In this document: positions 1 to 12,640 of the stretch, one piece after another
Numbering within the stretch: position 1 is the first letter of the stretch
Layout of the letters: each line of letters opens with the position of its first letter
From: a virus
DNA length: 16,371 nucleotides
Strand: one strand, 5' to 3'
UHGV virus genome: UHGV-0104965
Position numbers and translations under genes: made by a program
Notes under the pieces: generated by a model
Databases searched by the model: none
What the model was told of the DNA's origin: nothing
What the model saw: only the letters and a program-made list of their open reading frames with translations

Positions 1-15
1 TCAAATGCAGGAGAT

Positions 16-44
16 AAAAAAGGTCGCAAACCGCGACCTTTTAT
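16..44 (-). terminator. Rho-independent terminator downstream of the lipoprotein gene
   Basis: GGTCGC(22-27)-aaacc-GCGACC(33-38) hairpin; on the minus strand it is followed by a run of 6 U (complement of A-run 16-21). Sits directly after the stop of CDS 50..391. Confidence 0.6.
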
Positions 45-49
45 TAAAA

Positions 50-391
50 TTATTTTGATTTGTACTGCTGTATTAGTTTTTCTTTTTTCTCACGATAGTC
101 TTTAGCCTCTGAAATAATCTGATTAGCAGTTTTACCATTCAGAATAACTAAACGCATTTTATCGGGAGAGTAATTTTTATCACCATTAATCATGGCTTCT
201 GTATTGTAGTAACTGAGAGTATCTGAAATTGCTGTTAGCAATTCCTGTTTTTGCTCCGGGGAAAGCGGCTCAATGACCTTCTCACCTGAATAACGCAATG
301 ACTCTTGATTTGCACCATCAAATTTAGGTGCATTATCACAACCTGCCAAGAGCAACGTTAAAGCCAGACTAAATATATAAATAACTCTCAT
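50..391 (-). CDS. Putative secreted lipoprotein (moron), function unknown
   Basis: ATG at 391 with GAGGT Shine-Dalgarno about 6 nt upstream; N-terminal signal peptide with lipobox LLAGC; region 1-520 is markedly AT-rich compared with neighbouring phage genes; own terminator. No family recognised by eye. Confidence 0.8.
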   Translation of the reverse strand: MRVIYIFSLALTLLLAGCDNAPKFDGANQESLRYSGEKVIEPLSPEQKQELLTAISDTLSYYNTEAMINGDKNYSPDKMRLVILNGKTANQIISEAKDYREKKEKLIQQYKSK

Positions 392-497
392 ATGATTAAC
401 CTCATATCTAATGAAGATAAGAGTCTATCAAATCAAAAATAGCTATGACAGGATGATCTGTTATTGCATCTTGTAATAACTATCCCTCTTAGTAGAT

Positions 498-539
498 AAC
501 CATTATCAAGCCCATCTGCAGATGAGCTTTGTAATGGTT
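498..539. repeat. 42-bp imperfect palindrome centred on CATCTGCAGATG, with adjacent hairpin GCCACT-tcccgg-AGTGGC
   Basis: Left arm AACCATTAtcaagccCATCTG, right arm CAGATGagctttgTAATGGTT (3 mismatches in 21-bp arms). Lies exactly at the AT-rich/GC-rich composition boundary, about 110 bp upstream of the lipoprotein start. No U-run, so not an intrinsic terminator. Confidence 0.5.
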
Positions 540-807
540 GCCACTTCCCGGAGTGGCCACGCTCATGCCCTTGAGTTGCTGTCGCTTCATCGCCGCTGAT
601 AACCGGTGCGCGTATGGCGTTCGTGCTGCTTTACCGGAGCATGTACCCTTATTTACCCTCACATCGGTATGCTATACCTGCTCGCCATTACGCGACTCGG
701 GGCAGCATCATGACTGCTGCATTGCCTTCCGGCTACGGTCTTACCGCTTTGCTACTTCAAAAAGGTTTACTCCTTAGTACCGTTTGTTCCCCTGCTTTGC
801 AAAAGGC

Positions 808-1323
808 TCACCGCCGCTCTTGCTCAATCTGCCGTATACCAGCCAGGTTATTGTTGCCCTTCTCAATCACGGCCAGCAGCGGCTTAATCCAGAGCACAGC
901 CTGGCAGTAAGTTATTGAGCCGGCGGCAGCGGTACTATCATCGGCTGCGTCAGGTCCGTCGGTATCGGCGTGCATTGCGCTGGAACGTAAACGGTACGCG
1001 TATTCGAGCAGCCCACCAGCAATGTCAGCAGGAACAGGCAGATCACAGGTTTTTTCACGGCGGAGAATCTCCCGGTATTCGATTACGGTTTCTTCGGTGC
1101 TGGTGTCTATCAGGGCGTTAAGCCTGTTGGCATGTTCGGCTACCTGATTGAACCTATTAAAGTTGAATGCCTGGGTAGCGATCACCTGCCCCTGCAAAGA
1201 GTTGTCACTTCGCAGAACGTCGTTATCGCTCTGTAGGCTACTGGCGTTTGAGCAACTCTTAACGAGAGCGACCGAAAGGCCAGCAATAACGACAACGCCG
1301 ATAAGACCTGCATTAATTTTCAT
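808..1323 (-). CDS. i-spanin (Rz-like inner-membrane spanin subunit)
   Basis: ORF 808..1416 trimmed to internal ATG at 1323, which overlaps the endolysin stop (ATGA). N-terminal TM helix [21 protein letters not shown] followed by charged, probably coiled-coil periplasmic domain; last gene of the lysis cassette; contains the embedded o-spanin ORF. Confidence 0.7.
   Translation of the reverse strand: MKINAGLIGVVVIAGLSVALVKSCSNASSLQSDNDVLRSDNSLQGQVIATQAFNFNRFNQVAEHANRLNALIDTSTEETVIEYREILRREKTCDLPVPADIAGGLLEYAYRLRSSAMHADTDGPDAADDSTAAAGSITYCQAVLWIKPLLAVIEKGNNNLAGIRQIEQERR
912..1058 (-). CDS. o-spanin (Rz1-like outer-membrane lipoprotein), embedded in +1 frame of the i-spanin gene
   Basis: Hand translation from GTG at 1058 to TAA at 912 gives 48 aa: MKKPVICLFLLTLLVGCSNTRTVYVPAQCTPIPTDLTQPMIVPLPPAQ. 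Lipobox LLVGC, proline-rich mature part with a second Cys, as in lambda Rz1. GGGAG SD about 10 nt upstream. Absent from the ORF track (under 60 aa). Confidence 0.7.
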   Translation of the reverse strand: MKKPVICLFLLTLLVGCSNTRTVYVPAQCTPIPTDLTQPMIVPLPPAQ

Positions 1324-1859
1324 TGGTCCAGCCCCCAGCACGCCAGCGCACTTTCTTGATCGCGCCGCTCGACCTGCCCATAGCAGCCATTCTTTTGGCC
1401 TTTGGTTAGTCGGCAATCACGGCCGCCATCTTTAATCCACCAGCGAATAGCTTCACATGCCCCTTTCCGGTCACCAGCATTGATGCGCTTATAGAACGTG
1501 GACGGGAAGCATTTACCCGGCCCGATGTTGTACGGGCAAAAAGATGCGATGCCTACCTTCTGCGGCTCTGTCAGAGGCACTTTGATATTGCGATCAACCC
1601 AGGCTAATGCCTTATCACGTTCAATAGCGTTAACCTTGCGGCATTGTTCCTCTGTGGCTGTCATGCCCTTAACAACACGCCTGCCATCGATAACGGTCAC
1701 GCCGTGACATAAAGACCAGACCCCACCCGGATCAACAACGGCCACCAGCGCATTGCCTTCTTTCTCGCTGATGAATTGGTCGAAAATGAGTGGAGCAGAT
1801 GCCCCTGACGCGATTAGCGCCAGCACTGCTGCGCTGAGCTTTGCTTTGTTCGACATCAT
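1320..1859 (-). CDS. SAR endolysin (phage lysozyme, T4-lysozyme/GH24-like, signal-anchor-release type)
   Basis: N-terminal weakly hydrophobic SAR segment [20 protein letters not shown] followed by lysozyme catalytic region [15 protein letters not shown]...; start overlaps holin stop (ATGA at 1856-1859); resembles phage 21 R21 / P1 Lyz. Confidence 0.9.
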
Positions 1860-2071
1860 TCACCTCGGGCAGCTTTGCGGCGATCCGCTTTGATTTGAAA
1901 ATAAAGGTTGGTTAGGAAGGTTAGTAAGCCAAACAGTAAACTACCGATCACACCTATAGCGGCCCACTGTTCGGGTGAGTAACCGTCAAGAAGTCTTCTG
2001 AACCAGTAAATGGCACTACCTCCCGATGCGCCGTAGGAAATGCCAGTAGTTATTTTGTCCATTCGATACAT
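1856..2071 (-). CDS. Pinholin (phage 21 S21-like class II holin) with dual-start motif
   Basis: 71 aa beginning [10 protein letters not shown]... with two TM segments, closely resembling S21 (MKSMDK...). Met1 and Met4 give the antiholin/holin dual start. GAGGTGA SD upstream of ATG at 2071. Confidence 0.9.
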
Positions 2072-2141: not shown

Positions 2142-3194
2142 TTATTCCCCTGCCAGCTGCCTTACCTCACTTACCGTCTGGTTGAAACGTTCCTCTTCCA
2201 GTTCTACGCCGATAGCCTGGCGGCCCAGTTCAATGGCTGCTTTAACAGTTGATCCCGAGCCCATAAAGAAATCAGCTACCACATCGCCGGGCCTGCTGCT
2301 GGCGTTGATGATTTGCCGCAACATATCAGCGGGCTTTTCGCACGGGTGTTTGCCTGGATAGAACTGGACTGGTTTATGGGTCCATACGTCCGTATATGGC
2401 ACGGCAGCTGTCACAGAGAAATGCCGCCGAAGTGATTTGTACTCTTCGAGCAGCTCTGAATATTTGCGATTCAACGAATGCCACAGAGCCACCAGCTGGT
2501 GGTGTGGTGTTGCCAGTTCGCCGTTCTGGTGCTTTTCGATGGCTACCTGCGTGAAAAGGGACTGAAGTTTCCGGTAGTCTGATTCATTCGGTAATTGCCA
2601 CTGGCTACCGCTGAACCAGTGAGACACCATGTTCTTCTTTCCAGTCGCATCGGCTATTTGTTTTGAGGATATGCCAAGCGCTTCACGTGCATCCCGGAAA
2701 TAAGATATTAGGGGAGTCATTACATGCTGCTTCAGCTCGCTTCCCTTCTCAGCGTACCCGTCGCTCTTTGGTTTATACGGCCCCTGGTAATGCTCAGCGA
2801 ACAGGATGCGTTCTGTTGCAGGGAAGTAAGAGCGCAGGCTCTCTTTATTACAGCCATTCCAGCGGCCCGACGGTTTAGCCCAGATGATGTGGTTCAGGAT
2901 GTTGAACCGCTCACGCATCATGATCTCAATGTCTGCCGCCAGGCGGTGACCGGAGAAAAGATAAAGACTGCCAGCAGGTTTAAGCACTCGCCAGAATTGT
3001 GCGAGGCACATATCAAGCCAGCGAAGATAATCCTCATCCCCTTTCCATTGATTGTCCCAGCCGTTGGGTTTCACTTTGAAGTACGGCGGATCCGTAACAA
3101 TAAGGTCAATGGTGTTATCTGGGAGGGTTGCGAGGTATAGCAGGCAGTCAGCGTTGACAAGCTCAACACTGTTTATATTTACAGTATTTTTCAT
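2142..3194 (-). CDS. DNA methyltransferase, beta-class (N6-adenine or N4-cytosine), orphan phage enzyme
   Basis: Motif IV TDPPY near the N-terminus and SAM-binding motif I FFMGSGST near the C-terminus (beta-class order: IV then I). 350 aa, no adjacent restriction endonuclease gene. Confidence 0.9.
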   Translation of the reverse strand: MKNTVNINSVELVNADCLLYLATLPDNTIDLIVTDPPYFKVKPNGWDNQWKGDEDYLRWLDMCLAQFWRVLKPAGSLYLFSGHRLAADIEIMMRERFNILNHIIWAKPSGRWNGCNKESLRSYFPATERILFAEHYQGPYKPKSDGYAEKGSELKQHVMTPLISYFRDAREALGISSKQIADATGKKNMVSHWFSGSQWQLPNESDYRKLQSLFTQVAIEKHQNGELATPHHQLVALWHSLNRKYSELLEEYKSLRRHFSVTAAVPYTDVWTHKPVQFYPGKHPCEKPADMLRQIINASSRPGDVVADFFMGSGSTVKAAIELGRQAIGVELEEERFNQTVSEVRQLAGE

Positions 3195-3392
3195 AGATCC
3201 GTAAGCGTAACTCTGATAGGCTCACTATGCTTTTGCGCTAAAGCAGTGGGCCTTGGTTAGCTTGTGACCTGAAAGCATGAGCTGATGGCTGGCCGGGTGC
3301 TACAACACCCTCCAGCCGCCCATTTCTCAAGCGAAAATGCCTCCAGATAGGAGGAGCGTAGATTAGATAACTGGCTTTAATTTTCTGTCGAC

Positions 3393-3425
3393 GAAAAAAA
3401 ACCCGCTATTAAGCGGGTTTTTTCC
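3393..3425. terminator. Strong bidirectional rho-independent terminator ending the AT-rich moron
   Basis: ACCCGCU(3401-3407)-auua-AGCGGGU(3412-3418), 7-bp stem, flanked by an A8 run upstream and T-run downstream; directly follows the stop of the 53-aa CDS on the minus strand. Confidence 0.75.
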
Positions 3426-3445
3426 TATTTTTTAAGCGGCAAGAT

Positions 3446-3607
3446 TCATGCGGCTTCTCTAACACGACGGCGACCTTGACGCTCTTGAGAAGGTGCCTGT
3501 GCATTCTCTTCAAGAGCTGGACCAACCTTCATAAGAAAGTCCAGAGCTTCGCCAGCTTTTCTGTAAGTTTGGATAGTATCAAACAAGCGTTCTTTTTTCA
3601 TTTCCAT
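3446..3607 (-). CDS. Small hypothetical protein (53 aa), unlisted in the ORF track
   Basis: Hand translation: MEMKKERLFDTIQTYRKAGEALDFLMKVGPALEENAQAPSQERQGRRRVREAA. ATG at 3607 preceded by GAGGTG SD; stop TGA at 3446-3448 followed by the strong terminator. Basic C-terminal tail. Function unknown. Confidence 0.55.
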   Translation of the reverse strand: MEMKKERLFDTIQTYRKAGEALDFLMKVGPALEENAQAPSQERQGRRRVREAA

Positions 3608-3855
3608 ACATCACCTCTTCGGAAGCATTGTTCCAGAGTGAACATGCATTTCGTGTAACAACATGCGTGCTGAAGTTCACATGTTCATGTTACTACTACA
3701 TGCAAGAAGCATCTCGATACTTGAGCCACTCATTGCCATAGCTTTGAGCGATTGACATAGATGGTAGCTGCCATCTAGTTCTTCGGTATCTAGTGCTTAA
3801 ACTTGAGTACACTATAACACAATTACAATGTACCCGCTAACTTATGGGATGATGA

Positions 3856-4401
3856 TTAAGCATCTCTTTCAGCCATGTATCTCATCAGCCTATCAAGACT
3901 ACAAGTCATAACATAAGAGCAACTATCTGACATTTCAAACCCAAAGGTCCGATAGTAATCAATCTTTTCTTCCACTGGTTCAATGATACGAACCTCAGTA
4001 CCATCAACTTGCTTCATGAAGATAACGGCGGCGTATAATGTATACAAAATCATCTTACGACGCAATGGATGATCTTCACTATCCTTCACGAAGTTCTCAA
4101 CTGCATGTATATCAAACCTACTGCTACCGTGATGGTAGGTGCACAATGCCACACCCGCTGGGTAATCATCAACAAGTTTATGCTCTTTAGAAGTTATTAG
4201 TTTAATACATAAACTGAAACAATCCGGGTCATTACCTACTGAGGTTACATAGTATTCCCAGTTAAGTTCACCATAAGCTCTTATGAGGGAACTAGTATCA
4301 TTAAAAGAAAGCGGACCGACTGCTAGATCTATCTCACGATGATCCATGTATGCCTGGAGGGTGTTATAGGTTTGTTGAGCTACTTCTTCCAGAGAAAGCA
4401 T
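3856..4401 (-). CDS. Hypothetical protein in AT-rich moron (about 181 aa), possible GNAT-like fold
   Basis: ORF 3856..4413 uses a TTG; first ATG is at 4401 (MLSLEEV...). No clear SD. Low GC versus flanks. C-terminal segment ...RRKMILYTLYAAVIFMKQVDGTEVRIIEP...IDYYRTFGFE loosely resembles the acetyltransferase core and Y-x-x-x-G-F motif; weak, eye-only. Confidence 0.7.
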   Translation of the reverse strand: MLSLEEVAQQTYNTLQAYMDHREIDLAVGPLSFNDTSSLIRAYGELNWEYYVTSVGNDPDCFSLCIKLITSKEHKLVDDYPAGVALCTYHHGSSRFDIHAVENFVKDSEDHPLRRKMILYTLYAAVIFMKQVDGTEVRIIEPVEEKIDYYRTFGFEMSDSCSYVMTCSLDRLMRYMAERDA

Positions 4402-4500
4402 AATGTAGGCCAAAACAGGAGTTTAAGGGTTGAAAAAGAATACCATTAACAAATGTTAAAAACACTGAAGGATGGGATGTTTTTTCAGATTACTCCCAAG

Positions 4501-4522
4501 AAAAAACCCGCTCACTGGCGGG
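4501..4522 (-). terminator. Intrinsic terminator immediately downstream of the Q-like gene (tR'-like)
   Basis: On minus strand CCCGC-cagtga-GCGGG followed by UUUUUU (complement of 4501-4506). About 50 nt downstream of the candidate late promoter. Confidence 0.7.
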
Positions 4523-4558
4523 CTGATATACTTTTAGCAACATATCAAATTAGCTTCA

Positions 4559-4587
4559 AATATCGCTTATTTTGTTGCATTTTGCAA
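4559..4587 (-). promoter_or_regulatory. Candidate late promoter pR' (sigma70-like)
   Basis: On minus strand TTGCAA (-35; plus 4582-4587), 17-bp spacer, GATATT (-10; plus 4559-4564), placed between the Q-like gene stop and the tR'-like terminator. Hexamers are imperfect; positional argument is the main support. Confidence 0.3.
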
Positions 4588-4617
4588 GCTTAATTGAGGG
4601 AGTTAGTGAAAGTTACA

Positions 4618-5331
4618 TCACATTTCCGCCACTTTCAGTTCTTGGTACTCTTCGTACCGTGACAAAATTTCGCTTAGTGCCTGGCTGTCCATCTCAGTAA
4701 ACGACGCTTTGAAAGCCGCCCAGTGGCATGAATACACTCTGAGCCAGGTGGAACGCTCAACGCTGACCATGCGCGCCAGCGCTGCACCAGCATACTCCTG
4801 ATAGGTATCGTTATTACGCGAGGCAGCAACTTCTTGCGCCGCCAGCCAGACAAGCCCTATCAGTTTTTTAGTGACACGGTCCTGGATTTTTTTGCCGCTA
4901 TGCTGACGCTGAAACTCTTCCCATACGAACTGGCACATTAACCTCTGGTACCGGAAAGCAAGGTCATGCCCATAGCAGTACCGCACCCATGCCTGCAAAT
5001 GCTCCCCAAGACCATTGACCGAACGACGCCATGCTGAACAAGCGAACTCCGCATCCTTAATAGGCGGTAAAGGTCTGCGACGGCTCCTTGTCTCAAGAAC
5101 ATAAAGTGGAGTGGCCATCGTTTTTACAACCTTGGATCCACAACCTTCCCCACCCTCCATGACGATTTCAGGATGGTGCCGGGGGTATTTGTTCTTATCT
5201 GCTGGTGGATGCTCACTGAACGCCTGCAGCTGTCCTTTTGTCGATCCTGATAAATCCGCCAGCGCGCGGCGCAGTTCAATCCGCGTATATTCCAGTTCTT
5301 GTAAATTCATTATGCTCAGCGCTCCATACAA
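4618..5331 (-). CDS. Putative late-gene antitermination protein Q (QuuQ/YdfT-like)
   Basis: 237-aa ORF directly downstream of the YdfU-like gene and upstream of a promoter-plus-terminator pair and the lysis cassette, the canonical Q position; this gene order and size match my recollection of ydfU-quuQ in E. coli Qin. No Cys4 zinc finger seen, so not lambda-Q type. Start may be the internal ATG at 5310 (MNLQELEY). Confidence 0.6.
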   Translation of the reverse strand: MYGALSIMNLQELEYTRIELRRALADLSGSTKGQLQAFSEHPPADKNKYPRHHPEIVMEGGEGCGSKVVKTMATPLYVLETRSRRRPLPPIKDAEFACSAWRRSVNGLGEHLQAWVRYCYGHDLAFRYQRLMCQFVWEEFQRQHSGKKIQDRVTKKLIGLVWLAAQEVAASRNNDTYQEYAGAALARMVSVERSTWLRVYSCHWAAFKASFTEMDSQALSEILSRYEEYQELKVAEM

Positions 5332-7096: not shown

Positions 7097-9034
7097 TCAG
7101 GCGGCTGCACCCGCCTTTTGATTTGCACATAATTCAGGAAGATTTGCTTCTACCAGCGCACGAGCGAACGGCGGCGGTACTGCGTTACCGCAGCGCGCTA
7201 CCTGCTTGTCTTTGGCGTAACGATTGCCGCGATAGTCCTGATCGATAACGTAGCCGTCAGGGAAGCCCTGCGCCTTATAAAGCTCATGCGGTTGCAGCAT
7301 GCGCATTCCGATATCGACGATCTGGTACTTAACCCCCTCGATCGTCACCAGCCATTCATCCTCGCTATCACCGCAGTAGGTTTCGAGGAATGTCCGGACC
7401 TCGCCAACGTGCTGGCCACCAGCGGTAATCGTCGGCATAGGTGTATCCATGGTCTGACCGTCGCGGCAGGTTCCGCGCAGCTTCACCAAGTGCGACGCAA
7501 CTACCGCGTGATGATCAACAGTAGTGACAGAGTGGGCAGGCTCATCCATACCAACACCCGGCCCCGTGTAATTCCCACCATAGTGCTTTGCCAGGAACGC
7601 GCTCACCGTTGCAAACTTATTACCACCAGCAGTGACCGTGCCGAGCGGGTTATTCAGTTGAAGAACACGCGGTTCTTGCCCTAGGCGTTCGCCGTACCCC
7701 ATCTGGATCAGTGTTGGAGTTACCAGCTGCGACTTACCGCCACCACCTGCAGTAATCGTCGCGCTCGGTTCGTCAGCCCTGTGCCCAACACTAGCGCCAA
7801 ACTGGCGGGCGATGACCGGCGCAACCACGCACGCGCGGGACTGCCTGAGGATTGTATGAGCGGGTTTATCCAGCGGGCGCGGCTTTGCCTGGTACTCACT
7901 GCCGCCATTGCCAGCCAGGAACGGTGTCAGGGCGGCCTCAACTACGCCAAGCGCATGCCCATTCCCGCCCGGACGCGCCGACGTACCAGCGGTGACAGTT
8001 GGTACCGGCTCGGTCACTGGCTGCCCGGTGGCCCCGGTGCGGAATTTAGTAAGATGCGGTACCGCCAGCGCGTAGCCATGCTTTTTAGTGATGGTCTGCA
8101 ATGGCTCTAACAACGATTGCCCGCGGAAACAGTCATAACCTCCTTTCGTCGTGGTGTGGTTACACTTCACGATGAAAGGTGATGCGCTTTCGATAACAAA
8201 GCGCTGGATGCCGCGCGCGATACGTTTGAGCGTATTTTCCGCCAGCGGCTTTTTGCGGTCGAAGATGGAACGGGCCGGAATGTTCCAGTCAATGCACTCC
8301 GCCGCGGTACGCCATGGCGCCAGCTTGCCGCTTTGTACTTCCAGTGATTTTGGATCCCCATGAGTCGCTTCAGGCCAATGAATCTTGCGGCCGTCACAGC
8401 GCATGACCATGAAGAAACGCCTTCTGATCGTCGGCGCGCCGTAGTCACAAGCGCGCAGCTCACGATAATCGACCTCATAACCAAGCCCGGCGATCAGCTG
8501 TTGAGCCTGCTGGCCGTGCGGCTCAATGGCAAGAAATTCACAAACCTCAGCCAGTGCTGGGTGATTCGCCGCGATCCCCGTCGACAGCATGCCGACAAAT
8601 GCCTCGAATGTTTCACCAGCACGCTCAGGATCCGGGCGTAATTCTTCATCCAGCAGCGGGCCCCATGTCTTAAATTCTTCGACGTTCTCCAGCATCATGA
8701 CTCGGGGACGTACTGCCAGCGCCCAGCGCAGAACAATCCACGCCAGCCCGCGAATCTCTTTCTTAACTGGCTTAGCGCCCTTCGCTTTGGAAAAGTGGCG
8801 GCAGTCAGGGCTAAACCAGGCCAAGCCGACAGGTTTACCGCTGGTGGCTGCGCTTGGGTCAACGTCAAACACCGACTCGCAATAATGCAGCGTGTCAGGG
8901 TGATTCGTCTTATGCATCGCAATAGCGTTTTCGTCGTGGTTGATAGCGATATCCACGCTACGCCCGATCGCCACTTCAATGCCGGTACTCGCGCCGCCGC
9001 CACCAGCAAAGTTATCAACGATAATTTCACGCAT
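7097..9034 (-). CDS. DNA (cytosine-5)-methyltransferase with enlarged, four-module target-recognition region
   Basis: ORF 7097..9088 (GTG) trimmed to ATG at 9034 (MREIIVDNFAGGGGASTG, motif I). Motif IV region SPDCRHFS, motif VI ENV, motif VIII RRR, C-terminal motifs IX (QGFPDGY) and X (CGNAVPPP). Between VIII and IX are four degenerate repeats of P-x-x-T-[VI]-T-A-G-G ... [FT]-L. Confidence 0.9.
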   Translation of the reverse strand: MREIIVDNFAGGGGASTGIEVAIGRSVDIAINHDENAIAMHKTNHPDTLHYCESVFDVDPSAATSGKPVGLAWFSPDCRHFSKAKGAKPVKKEIRGLAWIVLRWALAVRPRVMMLENVEEFKTWGPLLDEELRPDPERAGETFEAFVGMLSTGIAANHPALAEVCEFLAIEPHGQQAQQLIAGLGYEVDYRELRACDYGAPTIRRRFFMVMRCDGRKIHWPEATHGDPKSLEVQSGKLAPWRTAAECIDWNIPARSIFDRKKPLAENTLKRIARGIQRFVIESASPFIVKCNHTTTKGGYDCFRGQSLLEPLQTITKKHGYALAVPHLTKFRTGATGQPVTEPVPTVTAGTSARPGGNGHALGVVEAALTPFLAGNGGSEYQAKPRPLDKPAHTILRQSRACVVAPVIARQFGASVGHRADEPSATITAGGGGKSQLVTPTLIQMGYGERLGQEPRVLQLNNPLGTVTAGGNKFATVSAFLAKHYGGNYTGPGVGMDEPAHSVTTVDHHAVVASHLVKLRGTCRDGQTMDTPMPTITAGGQHVGEVRTFLETYCGDSEDEWLVTIEGVKYQIVDIGMRMLQPHELYKAQGFPDGYVIDQDYRGNRYAKDKQVARCGNAVPPPFARALVEANLPELCANQKAGAAA

Positions 9035-9926
9035 TGACGGCCCCCTGCATGCTGTTGAAGAGACCACCAGCGGTCGTGATAATTTCACTCATCGGCATAC
9101 GTTCGAGCCACAGCTGGTTGATATTGGCTTTCAGCTTGTTCTGCTGTGAAACAGGTAGAGCGTCAGCCCCTTCAATCTGGTTAAACACCAGGCCAACCTC
9201 AAGAGGCCAGATGCGCGACTCTGCATCAGGCGTTGCAATGGGAGCAGGCATTACATTTTCCGGCACCGACGGAAGGGCCAATTTTGCCGCGGCGAATTGA
9301 GCCAATGACAATGCGGCACGCCCTTTTTCTTCCAGTTCGGTGCGATTGATATAGCTGAATCTTTCACCACGCCAGGTTTTGTCAAAGACAGCGATTGCCC
9401 CGGCAAAAAATGCGCTGGTGGGTTGCTGCTTCTCGTCAGCGGGAACAAACCAAACAGGAAGATCGAACCCAATACGACCACGAATAAACATGATGTGATC
9501 GGCATCCTCCGGCCACCATGTTTCACTTGTGGCTGACTTCACGAGGTATATGTAACGACCACCTTGATCACGCATCGCCATTGTGTGATTCATGATGTGG
9601 GTCATGCCAGTGATGGCCTGCTTTTCATGGTACTGAGAACGGCTATATGGCGGATTTGCAAACGCGGCGCCACCGAGTTCTGCCAGACGCTCTGACCAGT
9701 CCTGCGTCAGCGCGTTATCTTCGGCGGTATACCATGCAGGGCATTTAGCATTGCTATCGTCTGCAAACAGATCCAGAACCATCGGCCCAAATATCGAATT
9801 GATGCCCCAAAACAACAAATCCGGAGTGCGCCACTGATCGCCAACCTCTTTCAATTCATGCGCTGGCTTTGAGCGCAGTTCAGCCAGCGCGCGGCAATAT
9901 TTGTTATCAGCATTCATGCTCATCAT
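9027..9926 (-). CDS. Phage DNA N6-adenine methyltransferase (phage Dam family) with about 100-aa C-terminal extension
   Basis: WRTPDLLFWGINSIFGPMVLDLFADDSNAKC...AFANPPYS: the W-x-T-P ... D-x-x-A ... NPPY pattern of the phage Dam family. ATG overlaps stop of the O-like gene (ATGA at 9923-9926). Confidence 0.9.
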   Translation of the reverse strand: MMSMNADNKYCRALAELRSKPAHELKEVGDQWRTPDLLFWGINSIFGPMVLDLFADDSNAKCPAWYTAEDNALTQDWSERLAELGGAAFANPPYSRSQYHEKQAITGMTHIMNHTMAMRDQGGRYIYLVKSATSETWWPEDADHIMFIRGRIGFDLPVWFVPADEKQQPTSAFFAGAIAVFDKTWRGERFSYINRTELEEKGRAALSLAQFAAAKLALPSVPENVMPAPIATPDAESRIWPLEVGLVFNQIEGADALPVSQQNKLKANINQLWLERMPMSEIITTAGGLFNSMQGAVNA

Positions 9927-12013: not shown

Positions 12014-12640
12014 ATGGAAACGGTTGGTCAGCGCATTAAAGCCCTACGCAGGGTTACAAAAACCTCTCAAAAAGAACTGGGTAAGTTCTGCGGGGTTAGT
12101 GACGTAGCGGTGGGTTATTGGGAAAAGGATGTGAATATCCCTAACGGAGAATCGCTGGTTAAGCTGGCTAAATTCTTCAATACATCAATAAATTACATTC
12201 TTTACGGCACTGAATTTGAAGGTACCCTCATAACTAAAATGAGGCGTGTGCCCGTGATTTCCTGGGTTCAAGCTGGGCAGTTTACGGAATGTAAGGCCGC
12301 TGATTTATTCAGTGATGTTGATAAATGGGTTGAAACATCACTACGCATTGGGGATAGCTCGTTCGCTTTAGAGGTCAAAGGGGATTCAATGACCAATCCA
12401 AATGGCCTCCCAACAATCCCTGAAGGGGCAACCGTTATTGTTGATCCAGATGCCGAACCCCTTCATGGCAAGATTGTTGTTGCGCGTATTGATGGCACTA
12501 ACGAAGCGACTGTTAAAAAACTGGTCATTGATGGCCCACAAAAATTTTTAGTCCCACTAAATCCTCGCTACCCCAACCTCCCGATCAATGGTAACTGCCT
12601 CATTATTGGCGTAGTTAAAGGCGTTCAGTACGAACTCTAA
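12014..12640 (+). CDS. CI-type prophage repressor (N-terminal XRE HTH, C-terminal S24 LexA-like peptidase)
   Basis: HTH QKELGKFCGVSDVAVGYWEKDVNIPNGESLVKLAKFF; C-terminal autocleavage domain with Ser in GDSM and Lys in VKKLV; divergent from cro-like gene. Confidence 0.95.
   Translation: METVGQRIKALRRVTKTSQKELGKFCGVSDVAVGYWEKDVNIPNGESLVKLAKFFNTSINYILYGTEFEGTLITKMRRVPVISWVQAGQFTECKAADLFSDVDKWVETSLRIGDSSFALEVKGDSMTNPNGLPTIPEGATVIVDPDAEPLHGKIVVARIDGTNEATVKKLVIDGPQKFLVPLNPRYPNLPINGNCLIIGVVKGVQYEL

What the first reader, a model, noticed from the sequence alone, without database searches (positions are those of the whole stretch)
1..539. AT-rich lipoprotein moron bounded by a 42-bp palindrome
The final 520 bp are much more AT-rich than the lysis genes and carry a lipoprotein gene with a strong SD and its own terminator. 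The composition switch coincides with a 42-bp imperfect palindrome centred on CATCTGCAGATG plus a second adjacent hairpin. The palindrome could be an operator for a dimeric regulator of the lipoprotein gene or the scar of the recombination that brought in the cargo. The position corresponds to the bor/lom-type surface-protein morons of lambda.
Basis: partly seen in the sequence, partly recalled or inferred. Interest (0 to 1): 0.4.

Follow-up and report, generated by a model that had tools for sequence, protein, structure and literature searches.

The report
Lipoprotein moron beside conserved phage RNA hairpin
The AT-rich end of this prophage window carries an accessory lipoprotein gene of unknown function, and the 42-base "palindrome" next to it is not that gene's control site but one copy of a hairpin found in hundreds of lambda-like phages at the joint between the lysis genes and the DNA-packaging genes, where it most likely acts in the RNA.

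Summary
Bases 1-480 are 34% G+C against 53% for the lysis genes. They hold a DUF6694 lipoprotein gene (50-391, minus strand) with a Shine-Dalgarno (SD) site and a terminator. A unique 18/21 palindrome lies at 498-539.

The gene looks like a moron in lambda's bor slot (Rz to cos). Homologs down to 33% identity sit there too, always beside a Nu1/gpA terminase and after unrelated lysis cassettes.

The palindrome is neither the gene's operator nor an insertion scar. It belongs to a hairpin family, CAUUA-CA-[9-10 bp stem]-GA-UAAUG, present in HK022, HK620, ES18, Stx phages, more than 120 viral contigs and at least 905 of 5,426 E. coli genomes, nearly all without the lipoprotein. Three lipoprotein lineages lack it.

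Its upper stem varies by compensatory changes. G·U pairs occur only on the late-transcript strand, which points to an RNA hairpin. It joins 42 upstream to 39 downstream sequence types, so it is a mosaic joint.

Function is inferred: an RNA processing or stability signal, perhaps for RNase III, that also serves as a crossover point.

An unannotated ~200-nt structured element (546-775) lies next to it.

The parts
8..52 (-). Intrinsic terminator of the lipoprotein gene: stem 18-42 (AAAAGGUCGC / GCGACCUUUU) followed by a U run. In the sister prophage L032, cos follows about 70 nt further on.
   Evidence: Inverted repeat I3. Fold -14.3 kcal/mol, z = -4.3. Terminator and the cos-like sequence are conserved in L032, L034 and L035.
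50..391 (-). DUF6694 lipoprotein gene, 113 aa. Signal peptide with lipobox LAGC and Asp at +2, which predicts retention in the inner membrane. The mature part is a four-helix domain.
   Evidence: all homologs have C-D-N-A-P-K-F-D-G. AlphaFold2 pLDDT 91. No fold match in PDB or BFVD.
399..403 (-). Shine-Dalgarno site (GAGGU) of the lipoprotein gene.
   Evidence: Read from the sequence. Conserved as AUGAGG in L034 and L035.
422..430 (-). Candidate extended -10 promoter element (TGA-TAGACT) for independent expression. No good -35 element.
   Evidence: TAGACT is conserved in the window, L034 and L035 within otherwise diverged DNA. The consensus scan did not call it. Inferred only.
460..480 (-). 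Probably chance.
   Evidence: -3 kcal/mol, z = -1.8. Uncompensated changes in L032 and L033.
481..498 (-). Degenerate copy of the small UAUCCC-N-GGGAUA hairpin that follows the boundary hairpin in many phages. This is the last stretch of backbone homology before the AT-rich cargo.
   Evidence: Blastn homology to SaltyDalty extends to base 481. Flank comparison.
496..541 (-). Boundary hairpin (the 42-bp palindrome 498-539). In the late-transcript sense it has an 8-bp lower stem, a 2x2 internal loop CA/GA, a 9-bp upper stem and loop UGCA.
   Evidence: -21.6 kcal/mol, z = -5.7. Family covariation. Covariance-model match of 63 bits on the minus strand against 31 on the plus strand.
546..775 (-). 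Conserved ~200-nt non-coding structured element that abuts the hairpin. It starts with an SD site (770-775) and a mini-ORF UUG-AAG-UAG (760-752).
808..1323 (-). Rz-like i-spanin. The embedded Rz1 o-spanin lipoprotein gene lies at 912-1058. This is the end of the lysis cassette.
   Evidence: PHROG 214 at 3e-58 and PHROG 456.
1320..2071 (-). Lysozyme (1320-1859) and P21-type holin (1856-2071).
   Evidence: Pfam PF00959 and PF04971.

Best explanation
The window is a lambdoid prophage of an Enterobacter (99% protein identity to E. roggenkampii). Its late operon runs leftward on the minus strand in this order: Q, holin, lysozyme, Rz/Rz1, a ~200-nt structured non-coding RNA element, a conserved hairpin, a lipoprotein gene, then cos and the Nu1/gpA terminase just outside the window.

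(1) Bases 1-480 are a moron-type accessory unit. It consists of a candidate weak promoter, an SD site, a DUF6694 lipoprotein gene and a terminator. The protein is predicted to be lipid-anchored in the inner membrane (Asp at +2) and to face the periplasm. Its function is unknown. The most likely role is an envelope or lysogenic-conversion function such as superinfection exclusion. It would also be transcribed as the last late gene before cos.

(2) The palindrome belongs to the operon backbone, not to the cargo. It is one copy of a widespread hairpin family, CAUUA-CA-[stem-loop]-GA-UAAUG, which folds in the late mRNA. It usually starts 2 nt after the stop codon of the last gene of the lysis or accessory module and lies just ahead of the packaging module.

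Shown: it is a selected stem-loop on the sense strand, and it is a mosaic joint.

Inferred: it punctuates the polycistronic late RNA as a processing or stability signal. The best guess is an RNase III-type site or an exonuclease barrier. Its constant length of about 19-20 bp and an internal loop fixed 9-10 bp from the apex would fit such an enzyme. Because it is the only sequence shared between otherwise unrelated modules, it is also where homologous recombination reassorts lysis and packaging modules. That would explain why the composition switch lies beside it.
For: Identity and context.

Lipoprotein slot: homologs at 99%, 61-67% and 33-37% identity all lie between a lysis cassette and Nu1/gpA, and all are AT-rich (0.35-0.41 against 0.53-0.57).

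Hairpin family: HK022, HK620, ES18, Stx2-1717, ECP1, CobraSix, AsXd-1 and SaltyDalty all carry it downstream of the lysis and accessory genes. More than 120 viral contigs carry it, as do at least 905 of 5,426 E. coli genomes.

RNA-level selection: in 71 distinct sequences the five variable upper-stem pairs are paired in 70-71 of 71 on the sense strand. On the antisense strand three of them are paired in only 20-51 of 71. Five pairs change on both sides, and no shuffle of 500 reached the observed values. Many loops are C(UNCG)G. Subtypes with a completely different upper stem keep the same architecture and the same CA/GA loop.

Mosaic joint: 42 upstream and 39 downstream flank clusters form 72 combinations, and 16 and 13 clusters respectively have two or more partners. 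The upstream stop codon starts 5 nt before AUUAC in 68 of 132 cases.

Independence from the lipoprotein.

Precedent for RNase III processing of a lambda late transcript: Daniels et al. 1988, known here only from its title in the reference list of PMC7547250.
Against: There are no expression or cleavage data, so the RNase III or stability role is inference from shape alone.

The invariance of the lower stem and the CA/GA loop is partly an artefact of ascertainment, because the scan pattern fixed those bases. Only the BLAST-found and model-found copies speak to it.

G·T pairing on one strand would also fit a single-stranded DNA hairpin.

The sequences are related, so the counts are not independent events.

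The window's own copy folds almost as well on the plus strand (-19.5 against -21.6 kcal/mol).

The lipoprotein promoter is weak and was not called by the scan.

The lipoprotein's conservation in this slot down to 33% identity means it is an old resident of the Nu1/gpA module, not a recent cargo here.
Confidence: 0.6

Rival explanations
1. The palindrome is a purely DNA-level 'boundary' or linker sequence. It would be kept only because it promotes or survives homologous recombination between modules and would have no RNA function.
For: 72 flank combinations are joined through the same 34-46 nt. The concept is established in the literature (boundary sequences, cited in PMC3029335).
Against: A DNA linker needs sequence identity, not pairing. 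Yet the centre varies freely while keeping base pairs, with G·U only on the transcribed-sense strand and frequent UNCG loops. Subtypes with unrelated upper stems keep the same fold.
Confidence: 0.13
2. The hairpin is a translational operator or riboregulator for the gene downstream of it. It would bind a protein, or rearrange with the following small hairpins, to control initiation of the first packaging-module gene.
For: In many phages it is followed within 5-60 nt by the SD site and start codon of the next gene, or by UAUCCC/GGGAUA hairpins that contain the SD site. The conserved CA/GA loop looks like a specific recognition feature.
Against: The distance to the next start codon is very variable: 5 to more than 280 nt, and 107 nt in the window. 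The downstream genes are unrelated to each other. The tight constant is the spacing to the upstream stop codon.
Confidence: 0.12
3. It is a structure-specific single-stranded-DNA recombination site, attC-like, that bounds mobile gene cassettes in the late operon.
For: Several phages have two same-strand copies bracketing one small gene, each copy lying right after a stop codon: L042 at 148 and 812, L158 at 1955-2001 and 1644-1690, and L154. It has a conserved base, conserved unpaired bases and a variable paired centre, as attC sites do.
Against: No dedicated recombinase gene is linked to it. The UNCG loops and the constant orientation with transcription favour RNA. Ordinary homologous or illegitimate exchange can explain the cassettes.
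Confidence: 0.06
4. One reading: the palindrome is an operator for a dimeric regulator of the lipoprotein gene.
For: It is a near-perfect dyad 70-115 nt upstream of the candidate promoter.
Against: It is present in hundreds of phages without the gene and absent from three lineages with the gene. Its asymmetric positions (CA against GA) are conserved as mismatches, and no regulator gene is adjacent.
Confidence: 0.03
5. It is an intrinsic transcription terminator that separates the lysis and packaging transcripts.
For: It is a very stable hairpin placed right after a stop codon.
Against: No U tract follows it in the window or in most family members. It lies inside a Q-antiterminated operon that must read through to the head genes.
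Confidence: 0.04

Closest known systems
Lambda bor (the lipoprotein moron between Rz and cos)
   Same: The slot is the same: after the spanin genes and before cos/Nu1. The product is a small lipoprotein and an accessory gene. Bor is expressed from the prophage and encodes an outer-membrane lipoprotein (PMC7067206 introduction, citing Barondess and Beckwith 1995).
   Different: There is no sequence or family relationship, since the only Pfam hit is DUF6694. The gene has the same orientation as the late operon, whereas bor is opposite in DLP12 (borD) and in lambda (from memory). Asp at +2 predicts the inner membrane, not the outer. The fold is all-helical.
Morons of HK97/HK022-type phages (Juhala/Hendrix definition; recalled from memory)
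   Same: It is an extra gene present in some related genomes only, with deviant base composition and its own terminator, placed between conserved modules.
   Different: The promoter is only a candidate. The gene is conserved in this slot down to 33% identity together with the Nu1/gpA module, so it behaves more like a long-term module resident than a recent add-on.
'Boundary sequences' of lambdoid phages (Clark et al. 2001, HK620 paper; concept cited in PMC3029335)
   Same: It is a short conserved sequence at a module boundary, flanked by unrelated DNA and proposed as a focus of recombination. HK620 itself carries the hairpin right after hkbL, at record positions 18881-18917.
   Different: I could not read that paper, so I cannot confirm that this is one of its seven sequences. 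The evidence for sense-strand RNA pairing goes beyond a DNA-homology role.
RNase III processing hairpins in phage polycistronic mRNAs (T7 R1.1-type sites, from memory; lambda late-transcript sites, Daniels et al. 1988, title seen)
   Same: It is an intercistronic hairpin of about two helical turns, interrupted by an internal loop, in a long phage late transcript.
   Different: Cleavage has not been shown. The loop is a symmetric 2x2 mismatch with conserved sequence. RNase III sites are not normally conserved in sequence between unrelated phages.
Integron attC sites
   Same: It is an imperfect palindrome at the 3' end of gene cassettes, with conserved ends, conserved unpaired bases, a variable paired centre and strand specificity.
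   Different: No integron-type integrase is present. The elements lie in a transcribed operon, always in the sense orientation. The RNA-type tetraloops argue against a DNA role.

Membership tests
Pfam DUF6694 (PF20404) lipoproteins | Match to the family model above the gathering score | tested here: met
   41.8 bits against a cut-off of 24.3, E = 1.5e-10, covering residues 7-99. Database relatives carry the same domain.
Bacterial lipoprotein (signal peptidase II substrate) | N-terminal signal peptide ending in a lipobox L-[AS]-[GA]-C | tested here: met
   The window protein has LLLAGC at residues 13-18. The Cys is invariant in 35 aligned homologs. Actual lipidation cannot be tested here.
Moron (HK97/HK022 sense) | Gene present in some, absent in other, otherwise related genomes at the same position | tested here: met
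   Most phages with the hairpin go straight on to other genes. The gene was found in only 7 protein clusters and 1 viral contig.
Moron (HK97/HK022 sense) | Own terminator | tested here: met
   Stem 18-42 plus a U run. Conserved in homologs.
Moron (HK97/HK022 sense) | Own promoter, with expression in the lysogen | tested here: inconclusive
   A conserved TAGACT with an upstream TG is present, but the promoter scan made no call. Expression cannot be tested here.
Moron (HK97/HK022 sense) | Base composition different from the neighbours | tested here: met
   0.35 against 0.53 here, and 0.39-0.41 against 0.49-0.57 in four other contexts.
Lambda Bor family | Sequence membership of the Bor family | tested here: not met
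   The Pfam scan at E <= 0.01 returned only DUF6694. NCBIfam returned nothing significant.
Lysis cassette component (o-spanin or other) | Co-inheritance with one lysis cassette type | tested here: not met
   The gene follows P21-holin/lysozyme/Rz, holin_3_1/DUF2570/LysC and holin_8/GH108 cassettes alike. A separate Rz1 gene is present at 912-1058.
Operator of the lipoprotein gene | Co-occurrence of the site with the regulated gene, and dyad-symmetric conservation in duplex DNA | tested here: not met
   Site and gene occur independently. Conservation is strand-asymmetric.
Intrinsic terminator (for the palindrome) | G+C-rich hairpin followed by a U tract | tested here: not met
   The hairpin is followed by AUCUACUAAG. 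The terminator scan made no call at 498-539.
Conserved structured RNA element (sense-strand hairpin) | Pairs maintained by compensatory and G·U changes on one strand across homologs | tested here: met
   97.6% of cells are paired, 5 pairs change on both sides, and no shuffle of 500 reached the observed values. Slid controls gave 25-48% paired. Sense against antisense tally.
RNase III substrate | About 20 bp of duplex RNA, possibly with an internal loop | tested here: met
   8 + 2 + 9 positions here, and 7-8 + 2 + 10 in the other subtypes.
RNase III substrate | Cleavage by RNase III in vivo or in vitro | not testable with these tools
   No data. This needs rnc mutants or purified enzyme.
Lambdoid 'boundary sequence' | Short conserved sequence between non-homologous flanks at a module border | tested here: met
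   42 x 39 flank clusters and 72 combinations, always between the lysis/accessory genes and the packaging genes.
Lambdoid 'boundary sequence' | Identity with one of the seven sequences listed by Clark et al. 2001 | not testable with these tools
   The paper is not held.
Rfam families | Match to any curated RNA family | tested here: not met
   No match at gathering score in the whole window. Only noise at E <= 10 in 380-900.

The most novel reading that the evidence does not exclude
The CAUUA-CA...GA-UAAUG hairpin may be the specific recognition site of an unidentified phage or host factor, and 'gene plus 3' hairpin' units may behave as exchangeable cassettes in the late operon of lambdoid phages. 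That would be an attC-like or RNA-guided punctuation system. It might work together with the adjacent, equally unannotated ~200-nt structured RNA that starts with a mini-ORF and also appears directly after pL and after Q.
Probability: 0.1. Interest if true: 0.8.

Novelty: new member of a known kind. Interest (0 to 1): 0.45.

Why it matters
The lipoprotein itself is an ordinary accessory gene of unknown function.

The useful result is about the palindrome. It is a very common, unannotated RNA hairpin, present in about one in six complete E. coli genomes and in many classic phages. It marks the joint between the lysis and packaging modules. If it is a processing or stability signal, it would explain how one long late transcript gives different amounts of lysis and structural proteins. 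It would also give a concrete, testable sequence basis for module exchange in lambdoid phages, which is the long-debated 'boundary sequence' model of mosaicism.

For annotation, it is a handy landmark for the end of the lysis region. It also warns against reading such palindromes as operators of whatever cargo lies beside them.

Tried and rejected
(1) Searches used a pattern with the wrong spacing (N16; the true gap is 14). The viral scan found only odd 36-nt variants. The single genome-contig scan returned essentially chance hits (Halanaerobiaceae, archaea and others), so it says nothing about distribution. One search, with a variable gap, corrected this for viral contigs.

(2) Rfam gave nothing at gathering score, and a permissive search of 380-900 gave nothing useful.

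(3) Fold searches with the confident lipoprotein model against PDB and BFVD found no match at E <= 0.001. PADLOC and NCBIfam gave nothing for it.

(4) Literature: the hairpin sequence strings appear in no relevant paper. The HK620 paper is not held. Keyword searches gave only citations of the boundary-sequence concept.

(5) K-12 DLP12 lacks the hairpin, so K-12 transcriptome data cannot be used for that prophage. The other K-12 cryptic prophages were not checked.

(6) The search for related loci with the family alignment failed because no conserved stretch was available. The single-protein scan found only the same prophage type.

(7) The ORF 489-662 (57 aa) that runs through the palindrome was rejected as a gene. 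No gene is called there in the sister contig, and the region aligns as non-coding with indels.

(8) The 460-480 hairpin was rejected as a functional element.
Full report
WHAT THE WINDOW IS

The window is part of a lambdoid prophage. Its genes include:
- cI (12014-12640, plus strand), cro, cII, a replication gene, and Dam and C5 methylases.
- A Rha/ANT gene, a DUF968 gene and Q (4618-5331).
- Then, all on the minus strand: an N6/N4 methylase, a P21-type holin (1856-2071), a lysozyme (1320-1859) and Rz/Rz1 (808-1323 and 912-1058).

The late operon therefore runs right to left, and the finding lies at its downstream end. A sister prophage in Enterobacter roggenkampii (L032, about 97-98% identical DNA, lipoprotein 99%) shows what lies beyond base 1. 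About 70 nt further on comes a cos-like sequence, followed by a Nu1-like small terminase (DUF1441), a gpA terminase and the portal gene.

CHECKING THE OBSERVATION

- G+C is 0.344 for 1-480 against 0.529 for 540-2071.
- The ORF at 50-391 encodes a 113-aa protein with a signal peptide and lipobox LAGC. It belongs to Pfam DUF6694.
- The SD site GAGG lies 8 nt before the ATG.
- A 10-bp hairpin followed by a U run lies at 18-42.
- The palindrome has arms 498-518 and 519-539 with 18 of 21 bases complementary. It is unique in the window, and none of 300 shuffles matched it.

The 'second hairpin' at 460-480 is weak, at -3 kcal/mol and z = -1.8. Two near-identical relatives each carry an uncompensated change in it. 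I discount it.

THE LIPOPROTEIN

The family is small. There are 7 clusters at 90% identity among 5.8 billion proteins, and 40 representatives at E <= 0.001 among 1.84 billion.

I looked up seven contexts, with homologs at 99%, 61-67% and 33-37% identity. In every one the gene lies between a lysis cassette and a Nu1/gpA terminase of a lambda-like prophage, in the late-operon orientation. The lysis cassettes are of three unrelated kinds. So the gene is not a lysis component, and the window already has its own Rz1. It travels with the cos/terminase side of the joint.

All homologs are AT-poor islands in G+C terms, at 0.35-0.41 against 0.49-0.57. All have a terminator before cos. A TAGACT -10-like hexamer, preceded by TG in the window, is conserved upstream of the SD site in three diverged lineages. 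The consensus promoter scan did not call it.

All close homologs start the mature protein with C-D-N-A-P-K-F-D-G. By the established +2 rule for E. coli lipoproteins (my knowledge), Asp at +2 predicts retention in the inner membrane.

AlphaFold2 gives a confident four-helix domain, pLDDT 91. It has no significant fold match in PDB or BFVD, and there is no PADLOC hit.

My conclusion is a moron-type accessory gene in the bor slot, of unknown function. My best guess is an envelope or exclusion role, and that guess is inference only.

THE PALINDROME IS NOT PRIVATE TO THIS GENE

Blastn with bases 1-560 found nothing for the AT-rich part in 50,697 phage records or 5,426 E. coli genomes. The 40-50 nt around the palindrome, however, hit HK022, HK446, mEpX1/X2, mEp235, ECP1, Fraca, CobraSix, AsXd-1 and SaltyDalty. 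A shorter query added HK620, ES18, Stx1/Stx2 phages, mEp213, mEp043 and many Salmonella phages. It also hit at least 905 of 5,426 E. coli genomes.

In every annotated case the site lies after the lysis genes or after accessory genes that follow them (Rha, KilA-N/hkbL). It lies before the packaging genes, which are HNH plus P27-type, P22-type, or other terminases.

Conversely, three lipoprotein lineages (L034, L035-37, L160) have no hairpin. One lineage (L161) has a different subtype of it 62 nt upstream of the gene.

THE PALINDROME ACTS AS A FOLDED STRAND, MOST LIKELY RNA

A corrected pattern scan of viral contigs gave more than 120 loci. These yielded 134 instances and 71 distinct 46-mers.

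Read in the sense of the late transcript, the element has:
- a lower stem (C)CAUUA/UAAUG(G);
- a 2x2 internal loop CA/GA;
- a 9-bp upper stem and a 4-nt loop.

The five upper-stem pairs that vary are paired in 70-71 of 71 sequences on the sense strand. On the antisense strand three of them would pair in only 20, 38 and 51 of 71, because the variation runs through G·U. Five pairs show changes on both sides: C-G to G-C, A-U to C-G, C-G to U-A, and so on. No shuffle of 500 reached the observed values, and slid controls dropped to 25-48% paired.

Many loops are C(UACG)G, C(UUCG)G or C(UGCG)G. These are RNA-stabilising tetraloops (my knowledge).

A second subtype has an unrelated upper stem (GNCAUUC...GAGUGNC) but keeps the same lower stem, the same CA/GA mismatch and the same dimensions. 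It occurs in L158 (two copies), L161 and L042. A mismatch conserved as a mismatch is not what a duplex protein site would show.

There is a caveat. The scan pattern fixed the lower stem and the loop, so their invariance in the 71 sequences is by construction. Only the BLAST-found and model-found copies speak to it.

Within almost identical DNA, the window and L033 differ in the hairpin by a compensatory pair (U-A against C-G) plus one loop base.

THE PALINDROME IS A MOSAIC JOINT

The 40 nt on either side of the hairpin fall into 42 upstream and 39 downstream clusters, joined in 72 combinations. Many clusters have 2-9 different partners.

The upstream gene's stop codon starts 5 nt before AUUAC in 68 of 132 cases. 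Downstream there may be:
- an SD site and start codon within a few bases;
- two small UAUCCC/GGGAUA hairpins;
- a long leader.

The window keeps one degenerate small hairpin (481-498) before the AT-rich DNA begins. The cargo junction is therefore about 18 nt past the palindrome.

Some phages have two same-strand copies bracketing a single gene.

This matches the 'boundary sequence' idea for lambdoid phages (cited in PMC3029335). HK620 carries the element at 18881-18917. I could not read the original paper, so I cannot say whether this is one of its listed sequences.

MECHANISM

Shown: the element is a selected, sense-strand stem-loop at a recombination-prone module border, and it is independent of the lipoprotein.

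Inferred: it is an RNA processing or stability signal.
- Its total length of about 19-20 helix positions is constant.
- Its internal loop is fixed 9-10 bp from the apex.
- It sits immediately after a stop codon.
These features resemble phage RNase III sites and 3' stabiliser hairpins. A lambda late transcript is reported to have RNase III sites (Daniels et al. 1988, seen by title only).

I put about 0.85 on 'RNA hairpin family, not an operator'. I put about 0.35 on RNase III or stability specifically.

The rivals are a DNA-only linker, a translational operator, an attC-like single-stranded DNA site, and a terminator. Each is set out with its own refutation test in the rival-explanations section.

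NEIGHBOUR WORTH A LOOK

Bases 546-775 (sense on the minus strand) are a ~200-nt conserved non-coding element. It is 77-94% identical in the blastn alignment to 10 other copies from Escherichia, Klebsiella, Hafnia and Providencia phages.

The consensus fold has 42 pairs, 10 of which change on both sides, and no shuffle of 500 reached the observed values. The structure was derived from the same alignment, so this is not an independent test.

Each copy starts with a strong SD site and a 1-6 codon mini-ORF whose peptide is not conserved.

It occurs in three settings:
- after pL and before an N-like gene;
- directly after Q;
- after the lysis cassette, abutting the boundary hairpin (window, L008, L111, L158).

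It has no Rfam match. I did not resolve what it does.

VERDICT

The lipoprotein is an ordinary moron-like gene. The palindrome is a member of a common but unannotated hairpin family, whose kind (an intercistronic or boundary hairpin) is already known. I rate interest as moderate.

Noticed in passing
window 546-775 (minus strand); also L001 2987-3191, L002 4446-4646, L008 2537-2771, L031, L111, L141, L155-L158: A ~200-nt conserved non-coding element supported by covariation. Each copy starts with a strong SD site and a 1-6 codon mini-ORF with no conserved peptide. It is found after pL, after Q, or after the lysis cassette in phages of four genera. It has no Rfam match.
   Followed up: partly
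L042 148-181 and 812-851; L158 1955-2001 and 1644-1690; L154 (two copies): Two same-strand copies of the boundary hairpin bracket a single small gene, and each copy starts 2 nt after a stop codon. This looks like a 'gene plus 3' hairpin' cassette arrangement.
   Followed up: partly
window 481-498; L006, L004, L030, L038 and many other loci just 3' of the hairpin: Many phages carry two small UUAUCCC-N5-GGGAUAA hairpins right after the boundary hairpin, and the second often contains the SD site of the next gene. The window keeps one degenerate copy.
   Followed up: no
window 507-530 compared with L033 1-41: In otherwise near-identical DNA the hairpin centre differs at three bases: a compensatory C-G to U-A pair plus one loop base. 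In the window this gives a perfect 12-nt palindrome, CATCTGCAGATG, with a PstI site. Only the window-type prophage shares it (2 of the 137 pattern matches; also L159, found later).
   Followed up: partly
window 461-469 (minus strand): A mini-ORF AUG-CAA-UAA preceded by AAGAGGGA lies just after the hairpin. It may be a remnant of the start of the gene that follows the hairpin in other phages.
   Followed up: no
window 2142-3194, 7097-9088, 9027-9926: One prophage segment holds three DNA methyltransferase genes: N6/N4 with an HTH insert, a 663-aa C5 enzyme, and a Dam-like enzyme.
   Followed up: no
window 3195-4617; L034 544-4361; L035 2548-3959: The interval between Q and the holin is a variable slot. 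The window has an AT-rich 185-aa ORF (3856-4413) with no Pfam or PADLOC hit, plus terminators. Relatives carry KwaA or a KAP NTPase with DUF2441 there, which suggests a defence or accessory hot spot.
   Followed up: no
P0001-P0007 and window 50-391: All close DUF6694 homologs have Asp at +2 after the lipobox Cys (C-D-N-A-P-K-F-D-G), the inner-membrane retention signal. More distant family members vary at that position.
   Followed up: partly
This was my own error.
   Followed up: yes
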